39,915 nt of DNA, taken from NCBI GenBank assembly GCA_016196605.1, contig JACPXJ010000004.1:1-39915 (forward strand), written 5' to 3'. This DNA is from Candidatus Nomurabacteria bacterium. GTDB lineage: Bacteria; Patescibacteriota; Minisyncoccia; Phycocordibacterales; UBA9973. Positions 508 through 39,915 of the stretch are shown piece by piece (positions within the stretch are counted from its first letter, which is position 1; every line of letters begins with the position of its first letter). A program made the translations under genes and the position numbers. The notes under the pieces are model-generated. The model was not told the origin of the DNA, ran no database searches, and saw only the letters and a list, made by a program, of their open reading frames with translations.

Positions 508-1364
508 GGACTAGAATCACTTTCTCAATTTTTGGCAGATCACGGAGTATATCAGAAAAATGGAAAGCCACTTGGCAAAGCTTCCGTAAATTGTATTCTC
601 AATAATCGTGCATATCTCGGATTTACCAAACATTACGGAGAATATTTTCCCGGAAGCTTTTTGCCAATTCTTTCTCCGACTCTGTTTGAAGCAGTGCAGA
701 AAGTTTTGAAAACGAGACAGAAACCGAGAAAATCTAAAATTGCTCATCCGTTTCATTTTCTCGGTTTTGCTCGTTGTGGCGAGTGCGGAGGTATGTTTAC
801 CGCACAGTATTCCACCAACCGCTTTGGCACAAAATATTCATATTATCGTTGCACAAAAAAGTTTGGTGTATGCGGTCAACTATACCTCCAAGAAAATGCA
901 CTCGCCACACAATTAAAAACACTGCTTCAATCAGTGTCGCTTCCTCGTGAAGAAATATTAAAAATGGAAAATAAAATTGACGAATGGGAAAACGAAAATA
1001 TTTCCGCGCGGGGAGGTGTTGTCCAAAATCTCAAAGACAAGATTCGAGGAAATCAAGAGAAGCTGGATAAACTTGTCGCGATATATCTAGATGAAGATAT
1101 TGAACGAGAAATATATTTAGAACGAAAAGATTTACTCATGCGTGAAAAAGCTTCTCTTCTCGAATCCGAAAGAGATTTTGGACAACAGAGAAAGAATTGG
1201 GTCGAACCCTTGCGGAGTTTCGTTTTGTCCTTGAAAGAATGCGCCGATTTGGAAAAAACCGAAAACTATTTGGAATGGAAGCAGTTTTTCCAAAAAATCG
1301 GCTCTAACCCTGAAATCAAGGACAAAACGGTTTCCATACACTGGGGGGAACTTTGGGATTTTGT

Positions 1365-1387
1365 CGCTTCCGCAAAGGGCGGAAGCG
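1365..1387. repeat. GC-rich hairpin CGCTTCCGC-AAAGG-GCGGAAGCG in the recombinase 3' tail
   Basis: 9-bp perfect inverted repeat. The CTTCCGCAA..GCGGAAG core is the same as in the palindromes inside atpG and atpD. Confidence 0.8.
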
Positions 1388-1457
1388 GGCTACCTAGCGC
1401 GAGTTTTGCTTCACAAAACTCGCCCCTTATTTCTAATTTCGCGAATGTTTCTTTGGG

Positions 1458-1529
1458 TGACTCTACTGGGAATCGCACCCAGATTTGAAGCTTGAGAAGC
1501 TTCCGTCCTAACTGTTAGACGATAGAGCC
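1458..1529 (-). tRNA. tRNA-Glu (anticodon CUC)
   Basis: The reverse complement folds as a cloverleaf: GGCTCTA / TC / GTCT-AACAGTTA-GGAC / G / GAAGC-TTCTCAA-GCTTC / AAAT / CTGGG-TGCGATT-CCCAG / TAGAGTC / A. The D-arm is Glu-like (TCGTCTA..GGAC). The T-loop is non-canonical (G at position 55). No CCA is encoded. Confidence 0.75.
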
Positions 1530-5872: not shown

Positions 5873-5958
5873 ATTTATGGAGAAAAAATTTAAACAACAA
5901 CAAGATAAAGAAAATAAAAAATTTGCTCTAGTAATAGATTTAATTCCAAATGTTTTTT

Positions 5959-6000
5959 AATCTACCAATTTAAACATATGTTCAAGATAGTAGATTATAG
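5959..6000. repeat. 42-bp repeat copy 1 (nested palindrome) upstream of ORF 6028
   Basis: AATCTACCAATTTAAACATATGTTCAAGATAGTAGATTATAG. Outer arms are AATCTAC/GTAGATT and the inner part is a near-palindrome TT(A)AACATATGTTCAA. Confidence 0.9.
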
Positions 6001-6027: not shown

Positions 6028-6597
6028 ATGCGAGGAGAGATAATTTACAAAATTTTGGATTTTATTAGTGACCAGATTATTGACCAATTTGATTTTGCGG
6101 ATGCTTTTCTTTCAGCCGGTTATGGAGCTAGTAGATCAAAAATGCAATATGAATTTTCAAAAATACAAGACAAAAGAACAATTTCGAAATTAAAAAAACA
6201 AAAAATTGATAATTTGAGAAAATATTTGTCGAAATTAAAAAAAGCTGGTTTAGTTGGAGAGGACGAATCAAAAAAAATCTATTTAAGTAAAAAGGGAAAG
6301 GGCAGGTTAATCTATCTTCAGAAGTCTTTTCTTTCAAATAAAAATCTTTATAAGAAAAGATTAGCGGACAGGGTTACTGTCATAAGTTATGATATACCTA
6401 TCGCTTTTAATAGGGAAAGAAATATTTTAAGAGATATGTTAAAGATGCTTGGCTTTAATTTAATTCATAAGAGTGTGTGGATTGGGAGAGTATTATTACC
6501 TAAAAGATTTATTAGTGATTTAAGCAATTTAGGAATTACTGATTATGTAGAAATTTTAGAGGTTACAAAAAATGGAACTTTAAAAGAAATAAATTAA
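6028..6597 (+). CDS. PaaX-like / Cas2-fold putative transcriptional regulator (wHTH + ferredoxin-like C-terminal domain)
   Basis: A winged-helix-like segment (LRKYLSKLKKAGLVGEDESKKIYLSKKGKGRL) is followed by VISYDIP..RNILRDMLKMLGFNLIHKSVWIG, which matches the FDIPE..R..LR..L..GF..Q.SVW pattern of PaaX C-terminal/Cas2-like domains. Assignment is from memory of the family, not a search. Confidence 0.5.
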   Translation: MRGEIIYKILDFISDQIIDQFDFADAFLSAGYGASRSKMQYEFSKIQDKRTISKLKKQKIDNLRKYLSKLKKAGLVGEDESKKIYLSKKGKGRLIYLQKSFLSNKNLYKKRLADRVTVISYDIPIAFNRERNILRDMLKMLGFNLIHKSVWIGRVLLPKRFISDLSNLGITDYVEILEVTKNGTLKEIN

Positions 6598-6606
6598 TTT
6601 ATAAAA

Positions 6607-6648
6607 AATCTACCAATTTGAACATATGTTCAAGATAGTAGATTACAG
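6607..6648. repeat. 42-bp repeat copy 2 downstream of ORF 6028
   Basis: AATCTACCAATTTGAACATATGTTCAAGATAGTAGATTACAG matches copy 1 at 40 of 42 positions. It contains the perfect 16-bp palindrome TTGAACATATGTTCAA. Confidence 0.9.
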
Positions 6649-14426: not shown

Positions 14427-14642
14427 ATGAAACGTCACTCGCTAGCTATCATGGCTGTGCTCATCGTAGCCGGAGCAATCTTGGTTAGTTATCGCATTCT
14501 CGTTCCGGCCCACAAGGCCGTGTTCGGGAACAGCCAGCCAGTAAAGGCTCAAAAAACAAATCAGACCAAAGTGATTGTTGCCCCAGCACGGTCTGGAGTC
14601 ATCAATCTCGAAGTCCACCTCAACCCAACGTTTGCACCATAA
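14427..14642 (+). CDS. Small hypothetical protein with an N-terminal TM anchor
   Basis: MKRHSLAIMAVLIVAGAILVSY.. It lies 10 nt upstream of the next ORF. There is no homology I recognise, and a GC-rich context inflates spurious ORFs. Confidence 0.35.
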   Translation: MKRHSLAIMAVLIVAGAILVSYRILVPAHKAVFGNSQPVKAQKTNQTKVIVAPARSGVINLEVHLNPTFAP

Positions 14643-14652
14643 ATTTTCGGTT

Positions 14653-15702
14653 ATGAAAAAAATACTCAGCCTCACTTGCGTCGCAATTGCGACGGCGCTT
14701 TGCGCCTTCGCCCAAACTCCAGTTACACCTCCAGGTTCACCACCGTCGGAACTTCCCGCCATCGTCAACAGTGGCACCTTGCGCGCCCGCGCATTCGAGC
14801 TCGCCGCCGAGGTTAACGCCTCGATGTGGGGGAGCGATTCATTGCTCCCAAGCGATACCACCTATGATCACCGGACATGGGTTGGGAAGAAAAACTCGCT
14901 GGAGATTCTGGATCAGGTCAAGCTACTCAAGCTTGCTGGCCAGACGGTGAGTTCCTCCGACGATATCAACATAGGCGGGTCCATCAATGCCAAGGACGGC
15001 GATCAGCTTTTCGCCGGAATGAACACGGTGAAGCCGGTGCAAGTCGGCGGCGTGTGGACGCTTCCGAGCACTGTCGGCAATATCGCCTTTGCTTTGTCGA
15101 GCGTTCCGTTCGATATGGGCAAGGAGGTTGCGGGTGTTGTTGGCGTTGGGAAAGACACCAACGGCAACCCAAGCACGGTCTGGATGGGATACGGCGGCAG
15201 AAAGATTTACGTCTCGCCACTCCTGTATACTTTGTCTAATCCAGTGGTGCGTGTGTCTTTCACTGATGGCAGTGTGTGGGATTACACAGCCGCGGACGGT
15301 GGAAAAGGCAAAAAGATAGTGGTGATTCCGCTTACGGTCAACATGTCCGGTTCGTTCAAGAACACGGTCACTCTCAAAGATCCGCCGAACGGCTTCGTAT
15401 CGGTTGTTTCGATCAAGACAACCAACAAAGTCGGGATCACTCCGACAATCGAGGTTATGTCTTCGTCGATGACGACAATAATAGTAAATTTTGATATCTC
15501 AACCACTGACGGTAAACGTCCAGTGAGGTTGTGGTATCGAAAAAGCACCGATTCTAACGAAAGTTGGGCACCGGCCGTGTACGATGTCGGGCAGACAATC
15601 AAGGGGCTGCCCATTAACTACGACGGCAAAGCTGGCACCACCTATGTCGTGCCGGAATTCAAAGTGGGGGATCTGACGGAACCCTCTCCTTACGGAAAGT
15701 AA
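14653..15702 (+). CDS. Secreted hypothetical protein (Sec signal peptide, beta-rich)
   Basis: An internal ATG at 14653 gives MKKILSLTCVAIATALCAFA/QTP.., a signal peptide. The long ORF has a strong GC3 bias. I recognise no family. Confidence 0.6.
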   Translation: MKKILSLTCVAIATALCAFAQTPVTPPGSPPSELPAIVNSGTLRARAFELAAEVNASMWGSDSLLPSDTTYDHRTWVGKKNSLEILDQVKLLKLAGQTVSSSDDINIGGSINAKDGDQLFAGMNTVKPVQVGGVWTLPSTVGNIAFALSSVPFDMGKEVAGVVGVGKDTNGNPSTVWMGYGGRKIYVSPLLYTLSNPVVRVSFTDGSVWDYTAADGGKGKKIVVIPLTVNMSGSFKNTVTLKDPPNGFVSVVSIKTTNKVGITPTIEVMSSSMTTIIVNFDISTTDGKRPVRLWYRKSTDSNESWAPAVYDVGQTIKGLPINYDGKAGTTYVVPEFKVGDLTEPSPYGK

Positions 15703-16321: not shown

Positions 16322-16383
16322 GACCTCTCCCGGCTTTCAGCCACCCTCTCCTTAATAAGGAGAGGGACCGGGGGTGAGGTGAG
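16322..16383. repeat. REP/MITE-like nested palindrome, copy A
   Basis: ACCTCTCCCGG..CCCTCTCCTTAATAAGGAGAGGG..CCGGGGGTGAGGTGAG. The same architecture occurs at 18030, 24211 and 30151. Confidence 0.85.
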
Positions 16384-17194: not shown

Positions 17195-18043
17195 ATGGAA
17201 AAAATCGCGCATGAAATTACATTATTTGCAGAGCCAATTTTCCACCTTGGGAATTTTACCATTACCAACGCTCTGCTTACATCTTGGGTAGCTGTCGCAG
17301 TAATCATAATTTTATCTATCATATTGCGCACGAAGCTTCGCGTCATCCCCGGCAAACTCCAGAATATTTTTGAAATCGTTACCGAGGGCGCGCTAAGTCT
17401 CTGCGATCAGGTGACTGGCAGTCGCATCCTTTCCATGAAAATTTTTCCTTTGGCTATCTGCGTTTTTTTCTTCATCTTACTTAATAATTGGTTGGGACTT
17501 TTGCCTATTGGCGGACTGGGGCTTTTAGAAAGAAGCGAAAAAGGGCTAGCTTTTGTCCCATTTTTACGAGGTGGGACGGCTGACATAAATACTACCATTG
17601 CCCTTGCCGTAATGGCTGTTATCGGGGCAAATATCTTCGGGATTTTTTCAATCGGCATATGGAAAATTTTTAATAAATATGTTAATCTAAAGGCGCTCGG
17701 GGGGACATTTACGAAAATACGTAAAGAGCCGGCAGTCATCATCGTAGCTCCGATCACGTTCTTTGTGGGTATAATCGAGATTATCAGCGAATTTGCCAAG
17801 GTGGCCTCTTTGTCATTTCGTCTTTTTGGCAACGTTTTTGCCGGGGAAGTTCTTCTGGCATCCATGGCGGCGCTGGTGGCCTATGTGGTTCCAATACCAT
17901 TTCTCTTTTTGGAAATTATGGTGGGAATCATACAGGCATTAATATTTTCAATTTTGCTGGTTGTTTATTTTACGATAGCCTCTACGGATCATGAGGAGCA
18001 CGAAGAAAAACATGAACATTTATTGAGTGCCCCCTCTCCTTAA
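17195..18043 (+). CDS. atpB: F0F1 ATP synthase subunit a
   Basis: Polytopic membrane protein with the conserved LSFRLFGNVFAGEV (essential Arg). The last codons and the stop lie inside a REP element. Confidence 0.95.
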   Translation: MEKIAHEITLFAEPIFHLGNFTITNALLTSWVAVAVIIILSIILRTKLRVIPGKLQNIFEIVTEGALSLCDQVTGSRILSMKIFPLAICVFFFILLNNWLGLLPIGGLGLLERSEKGLAFVPFLRGGTADINTTIALAVMAVIGANIFGIFSIGIWKIFNKYVNLKALGGTFTKIRKEPAVIIVAPITFFVGIIEIISEFAKVASLSFRLFGNVFAGEVLLASMAALVAYVVPIPFLFLEIMVGIIQALIFSILLVVYFTIASTDHEEHEEKHEHLLSAPSP

Positions 18044-18116
18044 CAAGGAGAGGGCCGGGGTGAGGTTCTTGAGTCAGGAACCTCCTCCCAGCCTCCCCCT
18101 TATTAAGGGGGAGGGG
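18030..18116. repeat. Two adjacent REP-like palindromes, copies B1 and B2
   Basis: CCCTCTCCTTAACAAGGAGAGGG + CCGGGGTGAGGT at 18032-18066. Then AGGTTC-TTGAGTCAG-GAACCT, followed by the variant CCTCCCCCTTATTAAGGGGGAGG at 18092-18114. Confidence 0.85.
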
Positions 18117-19334: not shown

Positions 19335-20867
19335 ATGTCAAATCAGATAGTAGAAAATTTAAGAAAGGAAATAGAAGCATTCAAAGCGGAAGTCAAAACC
19401 GAGAAAGTCGGCAAGGTAATGGAAGTTTTTGACGGAATCGCCAAGGTTTCCGGCCTTTCTGACATTCGGTCAGGAGAAATGGTCACATTCCAAAATGGCG
19501 AGAGAGGAGTTGCGCTTAATCTGGAGGAGGATGCAGTCGGCGTCATAATTCTGGGTGACTTTTCTAAAATAAAAGAAGGCGACGAAGTAAAGGCTACCGG
19601 AAGAATTTTAGAAATATCGGTATCTAATAATATTTTGGGCAGAGTTGTGAACGCTATCGGTGTTCCCATTGACGGCAAAGGGGCAATCTCCGCCCAAGGC
19701 GGATCCGCCTCGGGCGGAAAAAGTTCCATAGAATATTATCCAATTGAAAAAGTGGCTCCCGGAGTGATTACCAGAGAGAGCGTGGGGGAGCCGGTCGCTA
19801 CGGGCATTAAGGCAATAGACGCTATTATCCCGATCGGCCGCGGACAGCGCGAGCTCTTGATCGGTGACAGGCAGACGGGAAAAACCGCCATCGCCATTGA
19901 CGCCATTTTGAATCAAAAGGGCCAGAATATGATTTGTGTCTATGTTTCTATCGGACAAAAAGATTCAAAATTACGCAAATTGCAGGCGCGACTCGAAGCA
20001 GGCAATAGCATGGAATATACGGTCATAGTCTCTGCCGGCGCATCAGAAGCCGCAGCCCTTTCTTATATCGCTCCTTACACTGGAGTTTCTATCGCAGAAT
20101 TTTTTATGGATCAAGGAAAAGATGTCTTAATTATTTATGATGATCTTTCCAAGCACGCTGTGGCCTATCGAGAAATTTCTCTGCTTCTCCGCCGTCCTCC
20201 CGGCCGTGAAGCGTATCCGGGAGACGTTTTTTATCTGCACTCCCGGCTTTTGGAACGCGCCTGCCGGAGAAATGCAAAATATGGCGGGGGATCGATAACG
20301 GCGCTGCCAATTATTGAGACGCAGGCGGGAGATATTTCTGCCTATATTCCAACAAATGTTATTTCCATCACTGACGGGCAAATTTTCTTGGAAACCGACC
20401 TCTTTTACAAAGGTGTCCGACCGGCGGTCAACGTGGGATCATCCGTGTCTCGTGTCGGCTCCAGCGCCCAGATAAAGGCAATGAAGAAGGTGGCAGGCAC
20501 GCTCAAGCTCGACCTCGCGCAATTCCGCGAGCTCGAAGCTTTCTCTCAATTCGGTTCTGATTTGGACGATGCAACCAAGCGCCAGCTGGAACGGGGCAAG
20601 AGAGCCGTGGAAGTCTTGAAACAGACTCAATATGCACCAGTTAAGACCGAACATCAAGTGGTGACTTTATATGCTCTTACAAAAGGTTATATGGATGACG
20701 TACCAGTAAATAAAATAAAAGAATTTGAAAGCGGACTTATTGACTACACTGAGAGAAATGCAAAAACTTTTTATAAAGAAGTTATAGAAAGTAAAATGTG
20801 GACAGACAAAGGCGAAGAGCAATTAAAGAAAGCAATTGCGGATTTTAAAAGTAGTTTTATAAAATAA
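19335..20867 (+). CDS. atpA: F0F1 ATP synthase subunit alpha
   Basis: [13 protein letters not shown] (P-loop), [43 protein letters not shown]. Confidence 0.97.
19689..19718. repeat. Two tandem mini-hairpins TCCGCC-CAA-GGCGGA / TCCGCC-TCG-GGCGGA inside atpA
   Basis: 30 nt, in frame, within the segment encoding [13 protein letters not shown]. Confidence 0.8.
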
Positions 20868-20924: not shown

Positions 20925-21866
20925 ATGGCGGGTACTAAAGAGATAAAACGACGAATTAGATCAGTCAAGAACACCAAGAAGATCACAAAGGCGATGGAGC
21001 TGGTGGCGGCTTCCAAGATGAAGCGAGTCGTTTCTTTGACGCTTGCTTCCCGATTATATGCTGAATATTCTTGGGAGATTTTGACCTCGATAGCTAAAAA
21101 TGTGGAAGAATTGGAACATCCGCTTTTCGCAGAAAGAAAGAAAAAGAAAAATGAAAAAGAGAATATTTTATTGATACTTATCACTTCAAATAGGGGTCTT
21201 TGTGGCGCTTATAATGCGCAAATAATGAAAAAAGCTCTTACTTTTTTAAAAACTAATAAAAACGCCAACATAAGTTTAGGGTCAGTTGGCAAAAAGGGAG
21301 AAATTTTCATTAATCGCACGATTGGATTTTCTTCAGCGAACTTTATTCTAGATGATGTAACTCTTGCCGATATTGAACCAGTTGCAAAATATGTTATAGA
21401 TGAATATAAAAATTTAACATACGGTAAAGTTTTGGTGGCTTATACTGATTTTATTTCCGCTCTTACCCAAAAGCCGAACATCAAGCAGATATTGCCTGTA
21501 TCCAAAGTTGATCTCAAAAAAGTGATCGAGTCTTTGGAGAATATTCGTCACGCGGAAGTCGGACTTCCGCAAAGCCAAAGCGGAAGTCCGACTTCCGCGC
21601 AAATTAAAGTGGATTATTTGTTTGAAGGGGATAAGGTAAAATTGATTAGCTCGCTTGCGGAAAAGCTTACCCGAATGCAAATATATCAGATGATAATCGA
21701 ATCAAACGCGAGCGAGCAGTCGAGTCGTATGGTTGCCATGAAGAATGCCTCGGACGCTTCCGGAGAAATGATAGATGATCTGACCTTGATGTTCAACAAA
21801 GCGAGACAGGCGAATATTACCAGAGAAATATCAGAAATAAGCGCGGGGATGGCATCCGTAAGCTGA
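20925..21866 (+). CDS. atpG: F0F1 ATP synthase subunit gamma
   Basis: KEIKRRIRSVKNTKKITKAMELVAASKM, and C-terminus ARQANITREISEI..G. Confidence 0.95.
   Translation: MAGTKEIKRRIRSVKNTKKITKAMELVAASKMKRVVSLTLASRLYAEYSWEILTSIAKNVEELEHPLFAERKKKKNEKENILLILITSNRGLCGAYNAQIMKKALTFLKTNKNANISLGSVGKKGEIFINRTIGFSSANFILDDVTLADIEPVAKYVIDEYKNLTYGKVLVAYTDFISALTQKPNIKQILPVSKVDLKKVIESLENIRHAEVGLPQSQSGSPTSAQIKVDYLFEGDKVKLISSLAEKLTRMQIYQMIIESNASEQSSRMVAMKNASDASGEMIDDLTLMFNKARQANITREISEISAGMASVS
21551..21599. repeat. Twin 19-nt palindromes in inverted orientation inside atpG
   Basis: GCGGAAGTCGGACTTCCGC (21552-21570), AAAGCCAAA, GCGGAAGTCCGACTTCCGC (21580-21598). The second is the exact reverse complement of the first. 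Confidence 0.9.
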
Positions 21867-21919: not shown

Positions 21920-23335
<1,416 letters not shown>

Positions 23336-23346
23336 AATTTTTTAAC

Positions 23347-23386
23347 AAGGACGGTCCTTAAGAGAGTTTCCCCAAGGACCGTCCTT
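23347..23386. repeat. Intergenic twin palindromes AAGGACGGTCCTT / AAGGACCGTCCTT between atpD and atpC
   Basis: The second unit is the exact reverse complement of the first. They can form a 13-bp stem with a 14-nt loop or two local hairpins. Confidence 0.85.
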
Positions 23387-23398
23387 AAGAAAAAATTT

Positions 23399-23878: not shown

Positions 23879-24619
23879 ATGTCAAAATTTTACATAGTTG
23901 CGACGCCGATAGGAAATATGGGAGACATCACCCTAAGGGCAATTGAAACCTTGAAAAATGTCGATTTAATTTTGTGCGAGGATACGCGAGAGACGCATAA
24001 AATTTTAGAAAAATATGGAATATCTACGCCGACTATGAGTTATCCATCCGACGATGTCGTCAGAAAAAACTCCAGACAGAGCAACAAATTTGACAAAATT
24101 TTTGAATTATTGGAAGAGGGGAAAGATCTTGCTCTAGTTTCTGACGCGGGTACACCGACCATTTCTGACCCGGGCGCGATGCTAGTTTCTAAAATTAAAG
24201 AAAAGTTTAACCTCACCCCTTCGCCCCTCTCCTTATCAAGGAGAGGGGTTGGGGGAGAGGTGAGTGTGATTCCTATTCCCGGTCCTTCGGCTGTCATTGC
24301 GGCGCTCTCTGCTTCAGGCCTGCCTACTCATGAATTTACTTTTCTCGGTTTTTTACCGCACAAAAAGGGCAGAGAGACTTTGTTTAAAGAAATCGTCGAG
24401 TCAGAAAGGACAATGGTGTTTTACGAATCTCCCCACAGAATTTTAAAAACACTTGAAGCTCTCGTTAAATTCTGTCCTGATAAAAAAGTCTGCGTTGCGA
24501 GGGAGCTTACGAAAATTTATGAAGAATTTAAAACCGGGACACCATCGGAAATATTATATTATCTAGTTCAAAACCCTGTAAAACAAAAAGGGGAGTTTAC
24601 GGTTATCGTTGCATGGTAG
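23879..24619 (+). CDS. rsmI: 16S rRNA (cytidine1402-2'-O)-methyltransferase
   Basis: FYIVATPIGNMGDITLRAIETLKNVDLILCEDTR, SDAGTPTISDPG, PIPGPSAVIAALSASGLP, ESPHR. Confidence 0.9.
   Translation: MSKFYIVATPIGNMGDITLRAIETLKNVDLILCEDTRETHKILEKYGISTPTMSYPSDDVVRKNSRQSNKFDKIFELLEEGKDLALVSDAGTPTISDPGAMLVSKIKEKFNLTPSPLSLSRRGVGGEVSVIPIPGPSAVIAALSASGLPTHEFTFLGFLPHKKGRETLFKEIVESERTMVFYESPHRILKTLEALVKFCPDKKVCVARELTKIYEEFKTGTPSEILYYLVQNPVKQKGEFTVIVAW
24211..24264. repeat. REP/MITE-like nested palindrome, copy C, in frame inside rsmI
   Basis: CCTCACCCC-TTCG-CCCCTCTCCTTATCAAGGAGAGGGG-TT-GGGGGAGAGGTGAG. It translates as LTPSPLSLSRRGVGGEVS between the SDPG and PIPGPSA motifs. Confidence 0.9.
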
Positions 24620-29014: not shown

Positions 29015-30151
29015 ATGAACATTTTAATTTTCTTGATTATTCTTCTAGTCTTGGTTTTAGTCCATGAGTTTGGGCATTTTTTTACTGCAAAAAAGTTCGG
29101 TATAAGAGTTGATGAATTCGGCTTTGGTTTTCCGCCGAAAATTGCAGGAATAAAAAAGGGTGAGACAGAGTATAGTCTTAATGCCTTGCCATTTGGCGGA
29201 TTTGTCAAGATTTTTGGCGAAAACGGAGAAGATTCTGTGAAGGTCGAACCTTCCCAAAATACTCATAGGGAAGGTTCGACCTTCACAGATGTGGATGCGA
29301 GCAGGAGTTTTGTGAATAGGCCAAAATGGCAGCAGGCGATAGTTCTTTTTGCCGGCGTGTTTATGAATTTTATTTTAGCTTGGATATTATTTTCTGTCGG
29401 TTTCATGTCCGGGCTTCCGACATCAGTCGGGAATGAAGCGAAAGGGCAGGTTCTTGAAAACGTAAATTTAACTGTTGTTTCTGTGTTAGAAACATCTCCG
29501 GCATTTATGGCAGGACTTAAATCCGGCGATAAGATAGTATCGGTACAAAGTGGACAGGATTCGTTAAGCAAGATTGATCCTGAAACTTTGAAATCCTTTA
29601 TCGTTGCCCATCCAGATAAAGAAATAGAGGTCGGATACGAGAGGGGTAACAATATTCAGGTTGCTAAAGTAACACCCATTCAAAATACCGAACAGGATAA
29701 ACCAATGATAGGCATATCCATGGATATGATTGGTACGGCCAAACTTCCATTTTTAACGGCTTTTAAAGAAGGAATGACCTTGACACTATTTGTTACAAAA
29801 GGTACAGCCGTGGGGCTCTATACGCTTATTTCTGAAGCAGTGAGAGGTCAAGGTAGTCTGGACTCGGTGACGGGGATCGTGGGCATGGTGGGTATGACAG
29901 GTGATGCATACGAATTTGGTTTTGTTTATCTCCTGTCATTTACCGCGCTTATTTCGGTGAACCTTGCGATCATAAATTTAGTTCCGATTCCGGCGCTGGA
30001 TGGCGGACGGCTGCTGTTCCTTCTTATTGAAAAAATAAAAGGGTCGCGTCTAAATTCTAAATTTACCAATACCGCCAACGCTGTCGGTTTCGGCGCCTTA
30101 ATAATTCTCATGCTGGTTATTACATATCACGATGTAGTAAAATTATTTTGA
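29015..30151 (+). CDS. rseP: RIP metalloprotease RseP (site-2 protease)
   Basis: HEFGHFFTAKKFGIRVDEFGFGFPP (HExxH), a PDZ-like middle, and NLVPIPALDGGRL. Confidence 0.9.
   Translation: MNILIFLIILLVLVLVHEFGHFFTAKKFGIRVDEFGFGFPPKIAGIKKGETEYSLNALPFGGFVKIFGENGEDSVKVEPSQNTHREGSTFTDVDASRSFVNRPKWQQAIVLFAGVFMNFILAWILFSVGFMSGLPTSVGNEAKGQVLENVNLTVVSVLETSPAFMAGLKSGDKIVSVQSGQDSLSKIDPETLKSFIVAHPDKEIEVGYERGNNIQVAKVTPIQNTEQDKPMIGISMDMIGTAKLPFLTAFKEGMTLTLFVTKGTAVGLYTLISEAVRGQGSLDSVTGIVGMVGMTGDAYEFGFVYLLSFTALISVNLAIINLVPIPALDGGRLLFLLIEKIKGSRLNSKFTNTANAVGFGALIILMLVITYHDVVKLF
29235..29288. repeat. 54-nt palindrome (perfect 21-bp arms, 12-nt loop) inside rseP
   Basis: CTGTGAAGGTCGAACCTTCCC-AAAATACTCATA-GGGAAGGTTCGACCTTCACAG. 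It is in frame and encodes SVKVEPSQNTHREGSTFTD. Confidence 0.95.
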
Positions 30152-30205
30152 CCTCTCCCTAGCCCCTCTCCTTATTAAGGAGAGGGGAAAAAAGGGGTGA
30201 GGTGA
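30151..30205. repeat. REP/MITE-like nested palindrome, copy D
   Basis: ACCTCTCCC-TAG-CCCCTCTCCTTATTAAGGAGAGGGG-AAAAAA-GGGGTGAGGTGA. It starts on the last base of the rseP stop, and its GAGGTGA tail lies 7 nt (30206-30212) upstream of the ATG at 30213. Confidence 0.9.
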
Positions 30206-35877: not shown

Positions 35878-36918
35878 ATGTCCAACGTATATTCAAATTC
35901 AATTTTCTGGATTGATACCGACAAAATAAAACCAAATCCATACCAGCCGCGGCGGGATTTTGATGAAGCGCGCCTTCAAGACCTCGCGGACTCGATAAAG
36001 CAGTATGGAGTGCTCCAGCCGCTGACCGTCTCTCGCGTAGAGAAAGAAAAAGAAGGCGGCGGGCTGGTGACTGAATACGAACTTATTGCCGGGGAGCGGC
36101 GCCTTCGCGCGGCGATACTTGCTCGTGTCTCTCAAGTGCCGGTCATAATCCGCACCGGCGACACTGCGATTATGAAGCTGGAGCTTGCGATCATTGAAAA
36201 TCTGCAGCGTGAAGACTTGAATGCGGTAGATCGCGCCCGGGCTTTCTTTCGTCTGGCCACTGAATTTAAGTTTACCCACGGTGAAATTGCGAAGAAAATG
36301 GGACGCAGCAGGGAATACGTATCAAACTCTTTGCGTATTCTCACCTTGCCGGAAGAAATCTTGGCTGGTCTTCGGGACGGAAAAATCAGCGAAGGCCACA
36401 CTCGGCCGATACTTATGCTTGCCGACCATCCTGAAGAGCAATTAGTGCTTTTTAAGGAAATTGTCTACAAAAAAATAACTGTCCGCGAGGCGGAAAAAAT
36501 TGCCAGAAAAATCGCTTATGACCGAGTACGCAAGAAAGAATTCATGCCCGATCCTGAAATAACCGAGCTTGAGGAAGAATTCCAACAAAAACTCGGCACC
36601 AGAGTCCATATCGACAGGAAAGAGCTTGGCGGACAGATAAGAATTGACTATTTTTCCAAAGAGGATCTGCGCGCTATTTTGGACTCGATGCAAAAGGCAG
36701 TTTATGAGAAAAATCCTGCCGAAATGTTGGAAAATTATATAGCGAATGCCAGGAAAGAAGTGGCTGAAGAATCACAGAGAGAACAAGTCGAGACAGCGCC
36801 TCAGGCGCTATCTGGGAGCGCTTTAGGCGCTCTTGAAGTTCCTATCGACGATCGATCAAAAGAGGAAGTCAAAAAAGACGACAGCGACTTATATAATATC
36901 TCGAATTTCAGCGTTTAG
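35878..36918 (+). CDS. parB: ParB/Spo0J chromosome partitioning protein with a C-terminal extension
   Basis: I.PNPYQPRRDFDE..L.DLADSIKQYGVLQPLTV, LIAGERRLRAA, HTH region (HGEIAKKMGRSREYVSNSLRIL). Confidence 0.9.
   Translation: MSNVYSNSIFWIDTDKIKPNPYQPRRDFDEARLQDLADSIKQYGVLQPLTVSRVEKEKEGGGLVTEYELIAGERRLRAAILARVSQVPVIIRTGDTAIMKLELAIIENLQREDLNAVDRARAFFRLATEFKFTHGEIAKKMGRSREYVSNSLRILTLPEEILAGLRDGKISEGHTRPILMLADHPEEQLVLFKEIVYKKITVREAEKIARKIAYDRVRKKEFMPDPEITELEEEFQQKLGTRVHIDRKELGGQIRIDYFSKEDLRAILDSMQKAVYEKNPAEMLENYIANARKEVAEESQREQVETAPQALSGSALGALEVPIDDRSKEEVKKDDSDLYNISNFSV
36795..36832. repeat. Two tandem mini-hairpins AGCGCC-TCA-GGCGCT and GAGCGC-TTTAG-GCGCTC inside the parB tail
   Basis: Seen directly. 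They encode PQALSGSALGAL in the non-conserved C-terminal extension. Confidence 0.75.
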
Positions 36919-39089
36919 CTTTCTATCTTCTTTATTTTGTGAGGATTGTGCATCGGACATGCTTTATTAGAGCAACGTTCGGGGATGGTTTTCGTGCCTT
37001 CCATCATGAGAGAGCCGCATTCTTTGCAGATATTCCCGGTTGGTTTGGCTTTTATCGCGAATTTGCATTTAGGATAATTTGAACAGGAATAGAAAATGCC
37101 GAATCGTCCGCGGCGCTCGCTGATGTCTCCGGTTTTACATAGAGGACAGGATACACCAGTGCGTTTTTTGGCTTCATCTGCTTCATCGCTCTTTATGAAT
37201 TTGCATTTTGGATAGCGGGAGCAAGAAATAAAAGTGCCTGTGCCGTCACGCCTTTGTCTGATGACCAGCTTGCCGCCCATATCTTTTTTTCTTTTCCCCC
37301 CAGCCTCCGCTAAAGCTACGGCGGGCGCAGCACACTCGGGGCACATTTCTCCGGTTTCCTCCGGACCTTTTAGTTCTGTACCGTCAAGCATCAATGCCCC
37401 ATCGCAGTCAGGGTAACGTAAGCAAGAATAGAATTTTCCTCCCCGAGAGAGCTTGATAATCATGTTGGATCCACATTTTGGGCACTTGATATTTTTCGGC
37501 GCATCGCCCAAATTCGTAGCTTTCTCCAACTTTTCTTTTGATTTCACTTCTTTTAAAAATGGCCCATAGAAATCTTTGAGCGTCTTCTCATATTCGCGCT
37601 CGCCGCGGGAAATTTCATCAAGTTCATCTTCCATTTCGGCGGTAAAGCTGTCAGATATGTAATTCATAAAATGTTTTTCCAAGAAGTCAGACACGACTTC
37701 GCCCACGTCAGTAGGGAATAAAGTTTTTCCCTCTTTTTTTACGTAACCTCTTTCTTCAATGGTGCGCATTATCGAAGCGTAAGTTGAAGGTCGCCCTATG
37801 TCCCTTTGTTCCAGTTCTTTGATAAGTCCTGCTTCACTATACCTGTCGGGCGGCAAAGTAAATTTTTCCTCATTATTTAAATCTATCAACTTCAAAACTT
37901 CTCCTTCCTTACATTGAGGAAGGTTTACATCATCACCGACTGCGTCGCTATCCACTTTGAGCCACCCGGGAAATAAGAGACGAGAGCCGTTGGCTCCGAA
38001 TTCAGGCAGATCATCATGATTTTTTATTTTGGCAGTGACTTTTGTTTTAAGCAGTTTTGCGTCAGTCATCTGGGAAGACACTGCCCGTTCCCAGATCAAC
38101 CTGTACAATCTGTCCTGATCCTCGCTTCCGGCAGTGAGGTGTTCTATATGAGTAGGGCGTATGGCTTCGTGCGCCTCCTGGACATTTTTTGATTTGGCTT
38201 TGTAAACTCGCGCTTCTGCATAGTCTGCGCCGTATTTCTTTTTTACGAGCGCAATAATTTGGTTTTGAGCGGTAACAGACAAATTTGTGCTGTCCGTTCG
38301 CATATAGGTAATATGCCCGGCTTCATAAAGTTTTTGAGATATTTGCATAGTACGCGAAGGGGAATATCCAAGCCGCGAGCTGGCAGTCTGCTGCAGAGTA
38401 GAAGTGGTAAAAGGCGCGCGAGGCGAACGCTTTTGTTCGGACTCTTTAACTCCACTTACGATCCAAGTGCCATCCTTGCCCTCTCTCATTATTCTTTGCA
38501 CTAATTTCTCATCCCGAGGTTCTTCGGAACATTCCAGAAGAAGCTGGCTCCCCAAAGCAAGACCTTGGGATCCCTTAAGGTCTTGCTTTTCTCCGCCAGC
38601 AGTTTTAAATAGACCAAAGACTCTCCAGTATTTTTCTGGCACAAAAGCGCGGATTTCGCGTTCACGTTCCATAATAATTCGGAGCGCCGGCGATTGAACC
38701 CGGCCAGCCGAAAGCCCGTAGCGGACTTTTTTCCAGATAAGCCCGGAAAGATCGTAGCCGACAAGGCGGTCGAGAACCCTTCGCGCTTCTTGCGCTTGCC
38801 TTAAGTTAGTATCAATTTTTCGCGGCTCTTTTAACGCTTCCTCCACAGCTTCCTTTGTGATTTCATGGAATGTTACCCTTTCTATCGGCGCTTTTACTTT
38901 TTTGTCCTGTTTTAAAAGAGTTTCTATGTGCCAGGCAATTGCTTCACCCTCACGGTCAGGGTCGGTCGCGATTATCACTTCATTTGCTTTTTGTGCCAGC
39001 CCCTGTAGTTCGTGCACGATTTTTTCTTTCCCCTTGGAAATTTCGTAGTTGGGAACAAATCCGGCCTCGATATCGATCGCATAGTGCAA
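36915..39089 (-). CDS. topA: DNA topoisomerase I (the ORF lacks the usual N-terminal ~40-45 residues)
   Basis: IATDPDREGEAIAWHI, the active-site region GHITYMRTDS, and four C-terminal zinc ribbons (CPKCGS.., CPEC.., CPLC.., CKECGS..). The ORF can only start at the TTG at 39089, 3 nt after the dprA stop. Confidence 0.85.
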   Translation of the reverse strand: MHYAIDIEAGFVPNYEISKGKEKIVHELQGLAQKANEVIIATDPDREGEAIAWHIETLLKQDKKVKAPIERVTFHEITKEAVEEALKEPRKIDTNLRQAQEARRVLDRLVGYDLSGLIWKKVRYGLSAGRVQSPALRIIMEREREIRAFVPEKYWRVFGLFKTAGGEKQDLKGSQGLALGSQLLLECSEEPRDEKLVQRIMREGKDGTWIVSGVKESEQKRSPRAPFTTSTLQQTASSRLGYSPSRTMQISQKLYEAGHITYMRTDSTNLSVTAQNQIIALVKKKYGADYAEARVYKAKSKNVQEAHEAIRPTHIEHLTAGSEDQDRLYRLIWERAVSSQMTDAKLLKTKVTAKIKNHDDLPEFGANGSRLLFPGWLKVDSDAVGDDVNLPQCKEGEVLKLIDLNNEEKFTLPPDRYSEAGLIKELEQRDIGRPSTYASIMRTIEERGYVKKEGKTLFPTDVGEVVSDFLEKHFMNYISDSFTAEMEDELDEISRGEREYEKTLKDFYGPFLKEVKSKEKLEKATNLGDAPKNIKCPKCGSNMIIKLSRGGKFYSCLRYPDCDGALMLDGTELKGPEETGEMCPECAAPAVALAEAGGKRKKDMGGKLVIRQRRDGTGTFISCSRYPKCKFIKSDEADEAKKRTGVSCPLCKTGDISERRGRFGIFYSCSNYPKCKFAIKAKPTGNICKECGSLMMEGTKTIPERCSNKACPMHNPHKIKKIES
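38554..38589. repeat. Palindrome AAAGCAAGACCTT-GGGATCCCTT-AAGGTCTTGCTTT inside topA
   Basis: 13-bp perfect arms, within the segment encoding ..DLKGSQGLALGSQ.. Confidence 0.8.
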
Positions 39090-39091
39090 AT

Positions 39092-39915
39092 TTACGCCAA
39101 TCTGATTTCTCCAAACTCTTCTTTGATCAGTCCTTTGATTTCCATTATTGAAATAAGCGCGTTGCCGGCGGCAGTCGGCATTTTTAATGATCTAATAAGA
39201 TCATCTTTAGGCAATGACTCTCGCAGCATGCCAACTACTTTTTTTTCATCGGGCGACAAATCCTCAAAAAGACGCTGTTGTTTTTCTTCGTCTTTTTCTT
39301 GTTCAAAACCTAGAGCTTCTAAAACTTCTTCCGAATTGGTTACGGGAGTAGCGCCCTGTCGGAGTAGCCGATTTGTACCTTTTGAGTTTGAGGAAAATAT
39401 AGATCCAGGCACGACTAGCAGATCTCTGTTGTATTCGGTAGTCAGCCGGGCGGTGATAAGCGTACCGGATCTTTCTTCGGCTTCTATTATGAGTACCGCC
39501 TTTGACATGCCCGCCATCAGCCGATTTCTCATAGGGAAGCACCAATATTGCGATACAAGGTCAGGAGGGAATTCTGAGATCAAGCATCCGCCTTTCTCCA
39601 CCACTTCTTTTACCAGTTGTATATTTGTTCTCGGATATATTACTTTGTCCGAAAGCCCTGAACCGGGAAACACAATAGTTTTAAGTCCTACCTGCATTGC
39701 TTTTTTATGGGCGATGGTGTCAATACCCATAGCAAAACCAGAAACAATGACTATCGGATAACCTTTAAGTCCGGCGATAATTTTTTCACAAGCTTCCTTG
39801 CCATAAGATGTAAATTTACGCGAACCAACAACGGAAAGATAAATTAAATTTTTTTCTTTCGGCAGCTCTCCGATTATCCAGAGGTCCTCCGGCGGCTGTG
39901 GAATTTCCAAAAGCT
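39092..39915 (-). CDS. dprA: DNA-processing protein DprA (5' end runs off the window)
   Basis: Rossmann-like core VVGSRKFTSYGKE.., IVSGFAMGIDTIAHKKA, VIIEAEERSGTLITA, and a C-terminal winged helix. The ORF is open to the window end. Confidence 0.9.
   Translation of the reverse strand, partial: LLEIPQPPEDLWIIGELPKEKNLIYLSVVGSRKFTSYGKEACEKIIAGLKGYPIVIVSGFAMGIDTIAHKKAMQVGLKTIVFPGSGLSDKVIYPRTNIQLVKEVVEKGGCLISEFPPDLVSQYWCFPMRNRLMAGMSKAVLIIEAEERSGTLITARLTTEYNRDLLVVPGSIFSSNSKGTNRLLRQGATPVTNSEEVLEALGFEQEKDEEKQQRLFEDLSPDEKKVVGMLRESLPKDDLIRSLKMPTAAGNALISIMEIKGLIKEEFGEIRLA

What the first reader, a model, noticed from the sequence alone, without database searches (positions are those of the whole stretch)
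29235..29288. 54-nt palindrome with perfect 21-bp arms inside rseP
CTGTGAAGGTCGAACCTTCCC-AAAATACTCATA-GGGAAGGTTCGACCTTCACAG lies in the rseP ORF and is translated as SVKVEPSQNTHREGSTFTD. This falls in the loop after the LPFGGFVKIFGE block and before the next TM segment. A 21-bp perfect inverted repeat is very unlikely by chance in a coding region. The sequence differs from the GCGGAAG family, so at least two or three hairpin families seem to colonise ORFs here.
Basis: seen in the sequence. Interest (0 to 1): 0.66.

Follow-up and report, generated by a model that had tools for sequence, protein, structure and literature searches.

The report
REP-type hairpin pair inside rseP
The perfect palindrome inside the rseP protease gene of this ultra-small (CPR) bacterium is two copies of a 21-base mobile hairpin repeat, of the type linked to a domesticated transposase in related genomes, inserted in frame into a loop of the protein.

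Summary
The arms are 22 bp and perfect (29234-29255 and 29268-29289) with a 12-nt spacer, inside an intact M50/RseP gene.

It is an insertion. The closest orthologs lack 14 codons here. Removing two 7-codon units (SVKVEPS, REGSTFT) restores a gap-free match (GENGED-QNTH-DVDASRSF against GENPDD-ENTN-GPDASRSF). So two 21-nt units in opposite orientation bracket four host codons.

Each unit is itself a small hairpin (GAAGGT-nnn-ACCTTC). Pairs with this core occur at 88 sites in 78 stretches of genome DNA. At least 52 stretches are labelled CPR, and about half the sites lie inside long ORFs, read in all three frames.

In six CPR-type genomes the same units lie next to, and in several also inside, an IS200-like Y1 transposase gene. 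Its only NCBIfam hit is 'REP-associated tyrosine transposase'. Its best fold match is E. coli TnpA-REP bound to a REP hairpin (4ER8). The window's unit is 19/21 identical to one such transposase-flanking repeat.

atpA, atpG, atpD and topA in the window carry other palindromes, absent from the relatives compared.

Best reading: a REP/RAYT-type repeat doublet that landed in frame, as Rickettsia palindromic elements do. No transposase gene lies in the window. I found no report of this in CPR bacteria.

The parts
29015..30151 (+). Host gene: RseP / site-2 protease (M50), 378 aa. Catalytic motifs are intact (HEFGH 17-21; NLVPIPALDGG 321-331).
29234..29254 (+). Left 21-nt REP-like unit, codons S74-S80 (SVKVEPS). 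It contains the mini-hairpin GAAGGT-cga-ACCTTC. The perfect arm runs 29234-29255.
   Evidence: It is absent from orthologs. It is 19/21 identical to the REP flanking the RAYT-like gene in L111.
29255..29266 (+). Spacer, codons Q81-H84 (CAAAATACTCAT). This is host sequence, homologous to ENT[N/F] of the closest orthologs (GAAAATACTTTT in L082) and to ENVH of Aquifex RseP.
   Evidence: phmmer opens two gaps around QNTH; L-INS-i aligns NT with the orthologs' NT; DNA.
29267..29287 (+). Right 21-nt unit, codons R85-T91 (REGSTFT), the reverse complement of the left unit. The perfect arm runs 29268-29289.
23346..23387 (.). Intergenic doublet CAAGGACgGTCCTTA-(12 nt)-CAAGGACcGTCCTTA between atpD and atpC. 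It has the same unit type as the repeat upstream of and inside the RAYT-like gene of L110.
21551..21599 (+). In-frame doublet in atpG: CGCGGAAGTCgGACTTCCGC-(9 nt)-GCGGAAGTCcGACTTCCGCG. Each arm is itself a hairpin. The same protein site carries different palindromes in L081 and L082 and none in L083.
19689..19718 (+). In-frame double hairpin in atpA (TCCGCC-caa-GGCGGA TCCGCC-tcg-GGCGGA). It is a +33 nt insertion relative to L081 and L083.
22249..22291 (+). In-frame 43-nt palindrome in atpD (20-bp arms, 3-nt loop). It is a +42 nt insertion relative to L081, L082 and L083 and to solved beta subunits.
   Evidence: A related arm lies in holB of L081.
38554..38589 (-). 13-bp-stem hairpin in topA, in a segment that is longer than in the TopA of L074.

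Best explanation
The rseP palindrome is a doublet of a short REP-type palindromic repeat. Two copies of one 21-nt unit (CTGTGAAGGTCGAACCTTCCC and its reverse complement) sit 12 nt apart in opposite orientation, each adding exactly seven codons to a poorly modelled (pLDDT < 50) loop of RseP.

Shown here:
- The units are insertions and the spacer is host sequence.
- The unit belongs to a multicopy hairpin family (core GAAGGT-N3-ACCTTC) of CPR genomes.
- In related genomes that family flanks, and sits inside, a syntenic IS200-like Y1/HUH transposase gene that resembles REP-associated tyrosine transposases (RAYTs) in sequence and predicted fold.

Inferred from the IS200/IS605 and TnpA-REP paradigm:
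- The RAYT-like enzyme recognises the unit as a hairpin on single-stranded DNA, then cuts and rejoins next to it, seeding new units, often beside an existing one in the opposite orientation.
- In gene-dense CPR genomes many insertions fall in ORFs. Only those that keep the frame, have no stop codon and land in tolerant loops survive.
- The peptide (KVEPS...EGSTF) is therefore a passenger, not a selected protein motif.

The perfect 22-bp pairing points to a recent event, or to the two arms being copied from one another. Both arms share the same two departures from the canonical unit.
For: Insertion:
- Short-form orthologs have 12 residues between GEN and RSF, against 26 in the window.
- Removing S74-S80 and R85-T91 gives an 18-residue, gap-free match with 12 identities.
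- phmmer against Aquifex RseP (9j82) independently opens two gaps around QNTH. L-INS-i with more orthologs does the same.
- The spacer DNA matches L082 at 9 of 12 positions.
- L112 has a single 21-nt hairpin (NLPAGEAG) at the same left site.

Family:
- The two-hairpin pattern found 78 stretches with 88 sites in 596 Gb, where my estimate of chance is about 0.05.
- 52 stretches are labelled CPR. The clearly non-CPR hits are mostly direct tandem repeats.
- At least 12 genomes have several copies. One 17-kb contig holds 4 near-identical doublets and 3 single units.
- 48 of the 88 sites lie in long ORFs, including UvrA, UvrC, MetRS, PheT, TopA, LepA, DnaE, RNase R and TsaD. They are read in all three phases as EGxTF, KVxPS or RRxxLR, so this is a DNA-level element.

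Transposase link:
- Y1_Tnp ORFs abut units in L067, L045, L009, L060 and L010; a sixth homolog lies in L006.
- The only NCBIfam hit for all six is NF047646, REP-associated tyrosine transposase.
- HUH and Tyr motifs are conserved.
- The AlphaFold model has pLDDT 86. Its best PDB match is 4ER8, TnpA-REP bound to a REP hairpin (E = 3.5e-5), followed by IS200 and IS608 transposases.
- Three homologs chosen without regard to repeats (L109-L111) lie in one syntenic locus (efp-recA-ftsK ... L10-L12).
- L109 and L111 are flanked on both sides by their own repeat type, in inverted orientation in L111; L110 has its type upstream. All three carry an in-frame internal copy of the same type.
- The window arm is 19/21 identical to the L111 repeat.
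- The window's atpD-atpC doublet is of the L110 type.
Against: - No Y1 transposase gene lies in the 40-kb window, so the link to a RAYT in this genome is by analogy.
- This unit type occurs only once (one doublet) in the window.
- The exact 19-nt arm is not a repeated element in the JGI metagenome contigs. All 25 hits are single and non-palindromic, and they sit in an unrelated conserved coding context that I did not annotate.
- The GTAG/CGTC head that marks classical REPs is absent; GTGA stands at that position.
- The location is intragenic, contrary to the definition of REPs.
- The host-derived spacer does not fit en-bloc REPIN transposition.
- The NCBIfam scores (19-47 bits) are far below the 80-bit equivalog cut-off, and a sequence profile did not retrieve 4ER8.
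- The 'Bdellovibrionales' and 'Pacearchaeota' labels of some repeat-rich MAGs were not resolved.
Confidence: 0.7

Rival explanations
1. The palindrome arose de novo by replication template switching or fold-back copying. A short quasi-palindrome in rseP was extended and perfected by copying the complementary strand, with no mobile element or transposase involved.
For: - The arms are perfectly complementary, including positions that depart from the canonical unit.
- The spacer is host sequence.
- Only one doublet of this type is in the window.
Against: - The arm is 19/21 identical to a repeat that flanks a transposase gene in another genome.
- It shares its 15-nt hairpin core with 88 sites in other genomes, which a local copying error would not produce.
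- Orthologs offer no precursor sequence at this spot.
- Template switching could still explain how the second arm arose from a first inserted unit.
Confidence: 0.12
2. It is a miniature transposable element of the MITE or Rickettsia-palindromic-element kind. It would be moved by an unknown (for example DDE) transposase, and the nearness of such repeats to Y1 genes elsewhere would be coincidental.
For: - It is inserted in frame in a housekeeping gene, as described for RPEs (PMC10969869).
- It has inverted-repeat architecture.
Against: - No target-site duplication is visible around either unit.
- The inserted material is 2 x 21 nt, far below MITE or RPE size.
- The internal sequence is host DNA.
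- Units abut the Y1 ORF in five of the six independent loci. In the three unselected syntenic loci the repeat type changes together with the Y1 lineage.
Confidence: 0.08
3. The hairpin is kept for a function in situ. Examples would be an mRNA structure that paces translation or membrane insertion of RseP, an RNase site, or an adaptive surface peptide.
For: - The predicted RNA hairpin is very stable (-43.5 kcal/mol).
- It sits in a loop between membrane segments.
- In-frame repeats at one fixed codon position of the RAYT-like genes show that some intragenic copies are long-lived.
Against: - The insert is absent from all sampled orthologs, so it is not needed for RseP function.
- The same loop carries unrelated inserts in other lineages, which fits tolerance rather than function.
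- The same DNA motif is read in three frames in unrelated proteins.
Confidence: 0.07
4. It is an assembly artefact, such as a chimeric inverted join.
For: Perfect inverted repeats can be created by assemblers.
Against: - Identical sequence is present in three assemblies, including two separate sequencing runs.
- The reading frame and RseP homology continue on both sides.
Confidence: 0.01

Closest known systems
REP / BIME / REPIN repeats with their RAYT (TnpA-REP) transposase ('REPtrons') of Proteobacteria
   Same: - The unit is a short palindrome, often found as an inverted doublet that can form one long hairpin.
- It is multicopy within genomes.
- A Y1/HUH transposase gene at one conserved (syntenic) locus is flanked by the cognate repeats, and the repeat type changes with the transposase lineage.
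- The best fold match of the CPR protein is 4ER8.
(. Definitions from PMC2817692, PMC3337134, PMC5581495 and PMC8266576.)
   Different: - About half of the sampled copies are intragenic and in frame, whereas REPs are by definition extragenic.
- There is no GTAG or CGTC head.
- The units are 21-25 nt with an almost perfect stem and a 1-3 nt loop.
- In the rseP case, and in a Kaiserbacteria genome, the spacer between the two units is not part of the repeat.
- The RAYT-like gene itself carries an in-frame copy.
- The host is CPR/Patescibacteria, and the protein is only distantly related (below NCBIfam's cut-off).
Rickettsia palindromic elements (RPEs)
   Same: Palindromic repeats inserted in frame into unrelated housekeeping genes of a reduced genome. 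They add surface peptides without destroying the protein (PMC10969869).
   Different: - RPEs are about 100-150 bp and encode a conserved peptide per family. Here the units are 21 nt and are read in any frame.
- No transposase has been tied to RPEs in the source read, whereas here a RAYT-like gene is associated.
- Sequence relatedness to RPEs was not tested.
IS200/IS605 insertion sequences and their miniature derivatives
   Same: A Y1 HUH transposase, sub-terminal hairpins recognised on single-stranded DNA, and no target duplication. The gene plus flanking hairpins is about 0.7-0.8 kb.
   Different: - The CPR gene sits in one conserved syntenic locus in three genomes rather than in many mobile copies.
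- The dispersed copies are bare hairpins, not miniature ISs with distinct left and right ends.
GC clusters and double-hairpin elements of fungal mitochondrial genomes (recalled from memory, not tested)
   Same: Short G+C-rich hairpin or double-hairpin repeats in an A+T-rich compact genome, occasionally inside coding regions in frame. The atpA, atpG and atpD hairpins here are 63-77% G+C in genes of 39-49%.
   Different: Organellar and eukaryotic, with no associated Y1 transposase. This is only an analogy.

Membership tests
REP/REPIN-RAYT system | Short (about 20-40 nt) palindromic unit able to form a stem-loop | tested here: met
   The 21-22-nt unit has an internal 6-bp stem and 3-nt loop. Relatives have 10-13-bp stems.
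REP/REPIN-RAYT system | Doublet of two units in inverted orientation that can form one long hairpin (REPIN) | tested here: met
   22-bp perfect arms; the minimum-free-energy structure is a single long hairpin.
REP/REPIN-RAYT system | Many copies in the same genome | tested here: inconclusive
   Only one doublet of this type lies in the 40-kb window, and the rest of the genome is not available. The feature is met in at least 12 other genomes.
REP/REPIN-RAYT system | Cognate RAYT gene flanked by the same repeats (inverted orientation) | tested here: inconclusive
   No Y1 gene lies in the window. Met in L111 (centre g versus c) and L010, and units also abut the gene in L060, L045 and L067. In L067 the two flanking units are in direct orientation.
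REP/REPIN-RAYT system | Transposase of the Y1/HUH class with RAYT character, one copy at a conserved locus | tested here: met
   Shown for CPR homologs, not for this genome. Pfam Y1_Tnp hits; the only NCBIfam hit is NF047646; HUH and Tyr are conserved; the top fold hit is 4ER8; three loci are syntenic. Copy number per genome was not counted.
REP/REPIN-RAYT system | Conserved GTAG (or CGTC) tetranucleotide at the foot of the hairpin | tested here: not met
   The unit begins CT-GTGA-AGGTC. No GTAG or CGTC is present (definitions in PMC3733652 and PMC8266576).
REP/REPIN-RAYT system | Extragenic location | tested here: not met
   The doublet is inside the rseP ORF, and 48 of 88 related sites are inside long ORFs.
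Rickettsia palindromic elements | In-frame insertion into unrelated protein-coding genes | tested here: met
   Translation itself was not tested.
Rickettsia palindromic elements | Element of about 100-150 bp that encodes a family-specific conserved peptide | tested here: not met
   2 x 21 nt are inserted, and the same DNA is read in three phases.
MITE | Terminal inverted repeats bounded by a target-site duplication, with an internal sequence belonging to the element | tested here: not met
   No direct repeat flanks the arms, and the internal 12 nt are host codons.
Integron attC site | R''/R' core sites RYYYAAC and GTTRRRY | tested here: not met
   The window unit has GTCGAAC and GTTCGAC, which do not fit. 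Only the CTA/TAG variants elsewhere (for example L044, bracketing a HicAB cassette) fit by eye.

The most novel reading that the evidence does not exclude
CPR/Patescibacteria may harbour a distinct, so far undescribed branch of REP-RAYT systems with three unusual properties.

(i) The hairpin units are about seven codons long and routinely settle in frame inside essential genes, including ATP synthase, RseP, TopA, UvrABC, aminoacyl-tRNA synthetases and DnaE. If so, they would be a steady source of loop insertions in CPR proteins.

(ii) Units are laid down as pairs at a fixed distance around pre-existing DNA, rather than moving as one REPIN block.

(iii) The RAYT gene carries its own cognate repeat in frame at a fixed codon position, co-evolving with the flanking repeats. 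This would point to autoregulation, or to an origin of the repeat from the transposase gene.

If true, this would also give the first enzyme candidate for RPE-like in-frame palindromes.
Probability: 0.35. Interest if true: 0.8.

Novelty: new variant of a known kind. Interest (0 to 1): 0.68.

Why it matters
REP/RAYT systems are regarded as extragenic residents of mostly proteobacterial genomes. In-frame palindromes (RPEs) are a Rickettsia curiosity with no known mobilising enzyme in the source I read.

Here both features meet in the ultra-reduced, gene-dense CPR bacteria. A hairpin repeat tied to a RAYT-like enzyme is found inside conserved genes, translated in whichever frame stays open.

Three consequences would follow:
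- It would explain part of the many lineage-specific loop insertions in CPR proteins.
- It would warn annotators and structure predictors that such segments are passengers.
- It offers an experimentally tractable pair (a small Y1 enzyme plus a 21-nt hairpin) for asking how REPs spread.

For the rseP gene itself the finding is benign: an extra 14 residues in a loop.

Tried and rejected
1. Exact-arm scan of the metagenome contigs. All 25 hits are single and non-palindromic, mostly in DNA of higher G+C (0.50-0.70 in most). Read on the opposite strand the motif encodes GEGSTF, and from memory this looks like a histidine-kinase ATPase motif, but I did not annotate those loci.

2. Known RNA genes. 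Rfam finds only four tRNAs in the window. Nothing but tRNAs and a tmRNA turns up in 18 loci with intergenic doublets, none overlapping a repeat.

3. Transposase in the window. Pfam scans of about 35 ORFs found none of the Y1 class. The only recombinase-like ORF is a partial serine recombinase at 532-1485.

4. Sequence-profile search of the six Y1 proteins against PDB sequences found nothing. Only the fold comparison linked them to TnpA-REP.

5. The large ortholog group with ADFVEVGFLDKE at the same RseP site showed no DNA symmetry, so I did not count it as a hairpin insert.

6. Integron attC idea. Rejected for the window's unit because the core sites do not fit.

7. DNA-uptake-sequence idea. 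Rejected because there is only one occurrence in 40 kb.

8. Intrinsic terminator. Rejected because the hairpin is inside an ORF with no T-run after it.

9. Literature. Seven full-text searches found no paper that links REP, RAYT or in-frame palindromes with CPR, Patescibacteria or Parcubacteria. The library lacks most subscription journals, so this is absence in that library only.
Full report
**1. The observation**

The window has a perfect inverted repeat with arms at 29234-29255 and 29268-29289. The arms are 22 nt, 100% complementary and 12 nt apart.

It lies in ORF 29015..30151 (+). This ORF is an RseP-type site-2 protease: Peptidase_M50 at E=2e-59 plus a PDZ domain, with HEFGH and NxxPxxxLDGG intact. 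The repeat reads SVKVEPSQNTHREGSTFTD.

It is far beyond chance:
- The arm sequence with up to three mismatches occurs only at the two arms, with 0.01 expected.
- The window has 11 perfect stems of 12 bp or more, against 0.125 in dinucleotide shuffles.
- The stretch folds to -43.5 kcal/mol as RNA (z = -9.8) and -26.8 as DNA (z = -10.4).
- Two other assemblies, from runs SRR12113416 and SRR12113417, carry the identical sequence.

The organism is a CPR/Patescibacteria bacterium of the Paceibacteria/Nomurabacteria kind, judged from the names attached to its RseP homologs.

**2. It is an insertion made of two units around host codons**

Among 8000 RseP homologs the nearest are only 66-75% identical, and none has this peptide. 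The short-form orthologs have 12 residues between GEN and RSF. The window has 26.

Removing codons S74-S80 (SVKVEPS, 29234-29254) and R85-T91 (REGSTFT, 29267-29287) leaves GENGED-QNTH-DVDASRSF. This aligns without a gap to GENPDD-ENTN-GPDASRSF, with 12 of 18 residues identical.

Two aligners reached the same picture independently:
- phmmer against Aquifex RseP (9j82) opens two gaps on either side of QNTH, which it pairs with ENVH.
- L-INS-i with more orthologs pairs the window's NT with the orthologs' NT.

At the DNA level the spacer CAAAATACTCAT matches GAAAATACTTTT of L082 at 9 of 12 positions.

So the palindrome is two 21-nt units in opposite orientation, each exactly seven codons, bracketing 12 nt of original rseP sequence. 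A related RseP (P0003, locus L112) has a single, different 21-nt hairpin (NLPAGEAG; CCTGCC...GGCAGG) at the same left site. In the AlphaFold model the inserted residues lie in an unstructured, low-confidence loop (residues 50-93, pLDDT below 50) between strands 42-56 and helix 104-132. From what is known of E. coli RseP topology, this should be the cytoplasmic loop after the membrane-re-entrant beta-hairpin. I did not test that.

**3. The unit belongs to a CPR-wide hairpin family**

Each arm is itself a small hairpin, GAAGGT-cga-ACCTTC. I scanned one genome per species (596 Gb) for two such hairpins 6-30 nt apart, with any loop. This returned 78 stretches holding 88 sites. My estimate for equal base frequencies is about 0.05 sites by chance.

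Taxonomic labels of the 78 stretches:
- 52 are labelled as CPR lineages: Kaiser-, Sacchari-, Morani-, Woese-, Nomura-, Adler- and Taylorbacteria, Paceibacterota and Minisyncoccales.
- 12 are unnamed 'bacterium'.
- 7 are labelled Bdellovibrionales or Pacearchaeota. I did not resolve whether these labels are right.
- 7 are clearly non-CPR, and these are mostly direct tandem repeats.

At least 12 genomes have several copies. One 17-kb contig (L036 and L067) has four near-identical doublets and three single units.

48 of the 88 sites lie well inside open frames of 150 codons or more. The host genes include UvrC (two copies), UvrA, MetRS, PheT, TopA (twice), LepA, RNase R, DnaE, GatA-type amidase, TsaD, MiaB-like enzymes and an ABC ATPase.

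The same DNA is read in all three phases, as EG[SLQ]TF, KV[ERQ]PS or RR[SL][ND]LR. This shows that the conserved entity is the DNA (or its transcript), not a protein motif. Intergenic copies overlap no Rfam family.

**4. Link to a RAYT-like transposase**

One ORF carrying a doublet (L067 370-1053, minus strand) hit Pfam Y1_Tnp. It is bracketed by single units 10 nt beyond its stop and at its start.

A phmmer search of all ORFs in the fetched loci found five homologs. Four of them (L045, L009, L060, L010) have units or doublets within about 130 nt of the ORF ends; the fifth (L006) has none nearby.

Evidence on what the protein is:
- All six have one NCBIfam hit only, NF047646 'REP-associated tyrosine transposase' (E from 2e-12 to 7e-4). 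The scores are below the 80-bit equivalog cut-off. Four of five further ORFs pass Pfam's Y1_Tnp threshold.
- The HUH motif (PNHFH) and conserved tyrosines on the following helix (EYLKYLFAYIHLNP) are invariant across 40 homologs.
- The family has more than 5000 members in the protein collection. Those that are named are CPR proteins called just 'transposase'.
- A confident AlphaFold model (pLDDT 86) has as its best PDB match 4ER8, 'REP associated tyrosine transposase bound to a REP hairpin' (E = 3.5e-5, probability 1.0). IS200, IS608 and ISDra2 transposases follow.

Three homologs picked without regard to repeats (L109, L110, L111) sit in the same syntenic locus, efp-recA-ftsK ... Y1 ... rplJ-rplL. 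This is as expected for the vertically inherited, single-copy RAYTs (PMC5581495).

Each of the three has its own repeat type next to the gene:

| Locus | Flanking repeat | Internal in-frame copy (codons about 55-62) |
|---|---|---|
| L111 | CTGTGAAGGTCgGACCTTCACAG upstream; ATTTGTGAAGGTCcGACCTTCACAAAT downstream (inverted orientation) | same type, read REGRTF |
| L110 | AATCAAGGACtGTCCTTGAT upstream (the hairpin downstream is of a different type) | same type, read NQGQSLI |
| L109 | CCATAGGTCGGACCTCTG (a doublet upstream, a single unit downstream) | same type, read PRGSTYV |

This co-variation of repeat and enzyme is the hallmark of REP-RAYT pairs (PMC2817692; PMC8266576).

The window's arm CTGTGAAGGTCGAACCTTCCC differs from the L111 repeat at 2 of 21 positions. 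Both differences are mirrored in the other arm. In addition, the window's intergenic doublet at 23346-23387 is of the L110 type.

**5. The wider picture in the window**

Codon alignments with three syntenic relatives (L081-L083) show window-specific, in-frame palindromic insertions in three ATP synthase genes:
- atpA: +33 nt at 19689-19718.
- atpD: +42 nt at 22249-22291.
- atpG: 21551-21599.

HMMER alignments to solved ATP synthase subunits confirm the AtpD and AtpG insertions.

The atpG site carries three different palindromes in three lineages. In L081 it is CCCCTCTCCTTAATAAGGAGAGGGG, a palindrome that is otherwise intergenic, with five copies in the window and three more in L081. This shows directly that 'extragenic' palindromes of this clade also enter ORFs.

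topA has a further hairpin at 38554-38589. The atp hairpins are 63-77% G+C in genes of 39-49% G+C.

**6. Mechanism**

Shown here: the two-unit insertion, family membership by sequence, and the association and co-variation of the family with a RAYT-like enzyme in relatives.

Inferred from the IS200/IS605 and TnpA-REP paradigm: the enzyme binds the unit as a hairpin on single-stranded DNA and cuts and joins beside it. New units then arise next to existing ones in the opposite orientation, as in the BIME model of PMC2817692.

The host-derived spacer in rseP argues against movement of the doublet as one block. So does a Kaiserbacteria genome, where ten doublets have identical 21-nt units at a constant 23-24-nt spacing but unrelated spacers (mean identity 39%). 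By contrast, in L036 and L067 doublets with an identical short spacer do recur. Both modes may therefore exist.

Survival inside genes then needs only three things: a length divisible by three, an open frame and a tolerant loop. What argues against, or limits, this reading is set out in the evidence-against field.

**7. Rivals**

- Pure template-switch origin. It explains the perfect arms and the host spacer, but not the 19/21 match to a transposase-flanking repeat or the shared core.
- A MITE- or RPE-type element moved by another enzyme. There is no target duplication, the internal sequence is host DNA, and the inserted material is too small.
- A hairpin or peptide selected in situ. It is absent from all orthologs, and the same loop holds unrelated inserts elsewhere.
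- An assembly artefact. Three assemblies agree and the frame is intact.

**8. Novelty**

REP/RAYT systems and in-frame palindromes (RPEs; PMC10969869) are both known. I found no report of either in CPR bacteria, and no report of REP-type units that are routinely intragenic. The paper library is incomplete, so this is not proof of absence.

I therefore rate the finding a new variant of a known kind. The rseP insertion itself is probably neutral.

Noticed in passing
window 16343-16367, 18031-18055, 18092-18114, 24224-24248, 30163-30187; L081 2367, 4835, 11189, 16655: A 25-nt palindrome, CCCCTCTCCTTA-N-TAAGGAGAGGGG, recurs in intergenic spots of the window and of the relative L081. One copy lies at the same place just downstream of rseP in both genomes. 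In L081 one copy is inside the atpG ORF, read as TPLLNKERGE.
   Followed up: partly
window 19689-19718 (atpA), 21551-21599 (atpG), 22249-22291 (atpD): Three ATP synthase genes carry window-specific, G+C-rich, in-frame palindromes (+33 nt in atpA, +42 nt in atpD). They are absent from syntenic relatives, and the AtpD and AtpG ones are also absent from solved homologs. An arm like the atpD one also sits in holB of L081 (9138-9176).
   Followed up: yes
window 23346-23387: An intergenic doublet CAAGGACgGTCCTTA ... CAAGGACcGTCCTTA lies between atpD and atpC. It has the same unit type as the repeat upstream of and inside the RAYT-like gene of L110.
   Followed up: partly
window 36915-39089 (-) and 39090-39330: The topA ORF lacks about the first 60 codons of the Toprim domain (the MKLLIVESPSKAK...GHIRDLP part seen in two other CPR TopAs). 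The dprA stop codon abuts it. This could be a truncated gene, a split gene or a local deletion.
   Followed up: no
window 37257-37340 (-): TopA has a G+C-rich 17-residue insert (AAPAVALAEAGGKRKKDMG) in its zinc-ribbon region that two other TopAs lack. Its DNA is an imperfect hairpin, possibly a decayed repeat.
   Followed up: no
window 5958-5997 and 6607-6644: A 39-nt imperfect palindrome, AATCTACCAATTTrAACATATGTTCAAGATAGTAGATTA, occurs twice, on either side of ORF 6028-6597 (weak PaaX central / Cas2-like domain hit), in the most A+T-rich part of the window. It could be an operator pair or cassette ends.
   Followed up: no
window 532-1485 and 1456-1529: An ORF with only the C-terminal Recombinase and zinc-ribbon domains of a large serine recombinase overlaps tRNA-Glu. 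It may be the remnant of an integrated element.
   Followed up: no
L109 10160-10180, L110 10168-10190, L111 10159-10187, L045 2715-2729, L067 816-853: The RAYT-like genes carry an in-frame repeat at roughly the same codon position (about 55-62, or 67-79 in L067). In L109-L111 and L067 its type matches the repeat next to the same gene.
   Followed up: partly
L044 3833-3870 and 4412-4449: Two repeat doublets bracket a two-gene HicB (UPF0150) / HicA toxin-antitoxin cassette. The CTA/TAG loop variants of the unit happen to fit the integron attC core consensus by eye (GTCTAAC and GTTAGAC).
   Followed up: partly
L003, L010, L012, L014, L028, L030, L041, L062 (Kaiserbacteria JACPGH01): Ten intergenic doublets have identical 21-nt units (TGTGAAGGTCnGACCTTCACA) at a constant 23-24-nt spacing. 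Their spacer sequences are unrelated, though often with AGCT next to a unit.
   Followed up: partly
L081 10250-10295; L082 10565-10603; L112 (rseP codons about 73-80): RseP orthologs carry other imperfect-palindrome inserts: PARNAESIASAGGE (P0081), PARNATQSVAGGE at a different site (P0032), and a 21-nt hairpin NLPAGEAG at the same site as the window's left unit (P0003).
   Followed up: partly
window 14575-15702: A 375-codon ORF with no Pfam hit lies in the most G+C-rich part of the window (0.48), overlapped by several antisense ORFs.
   Followed up: no
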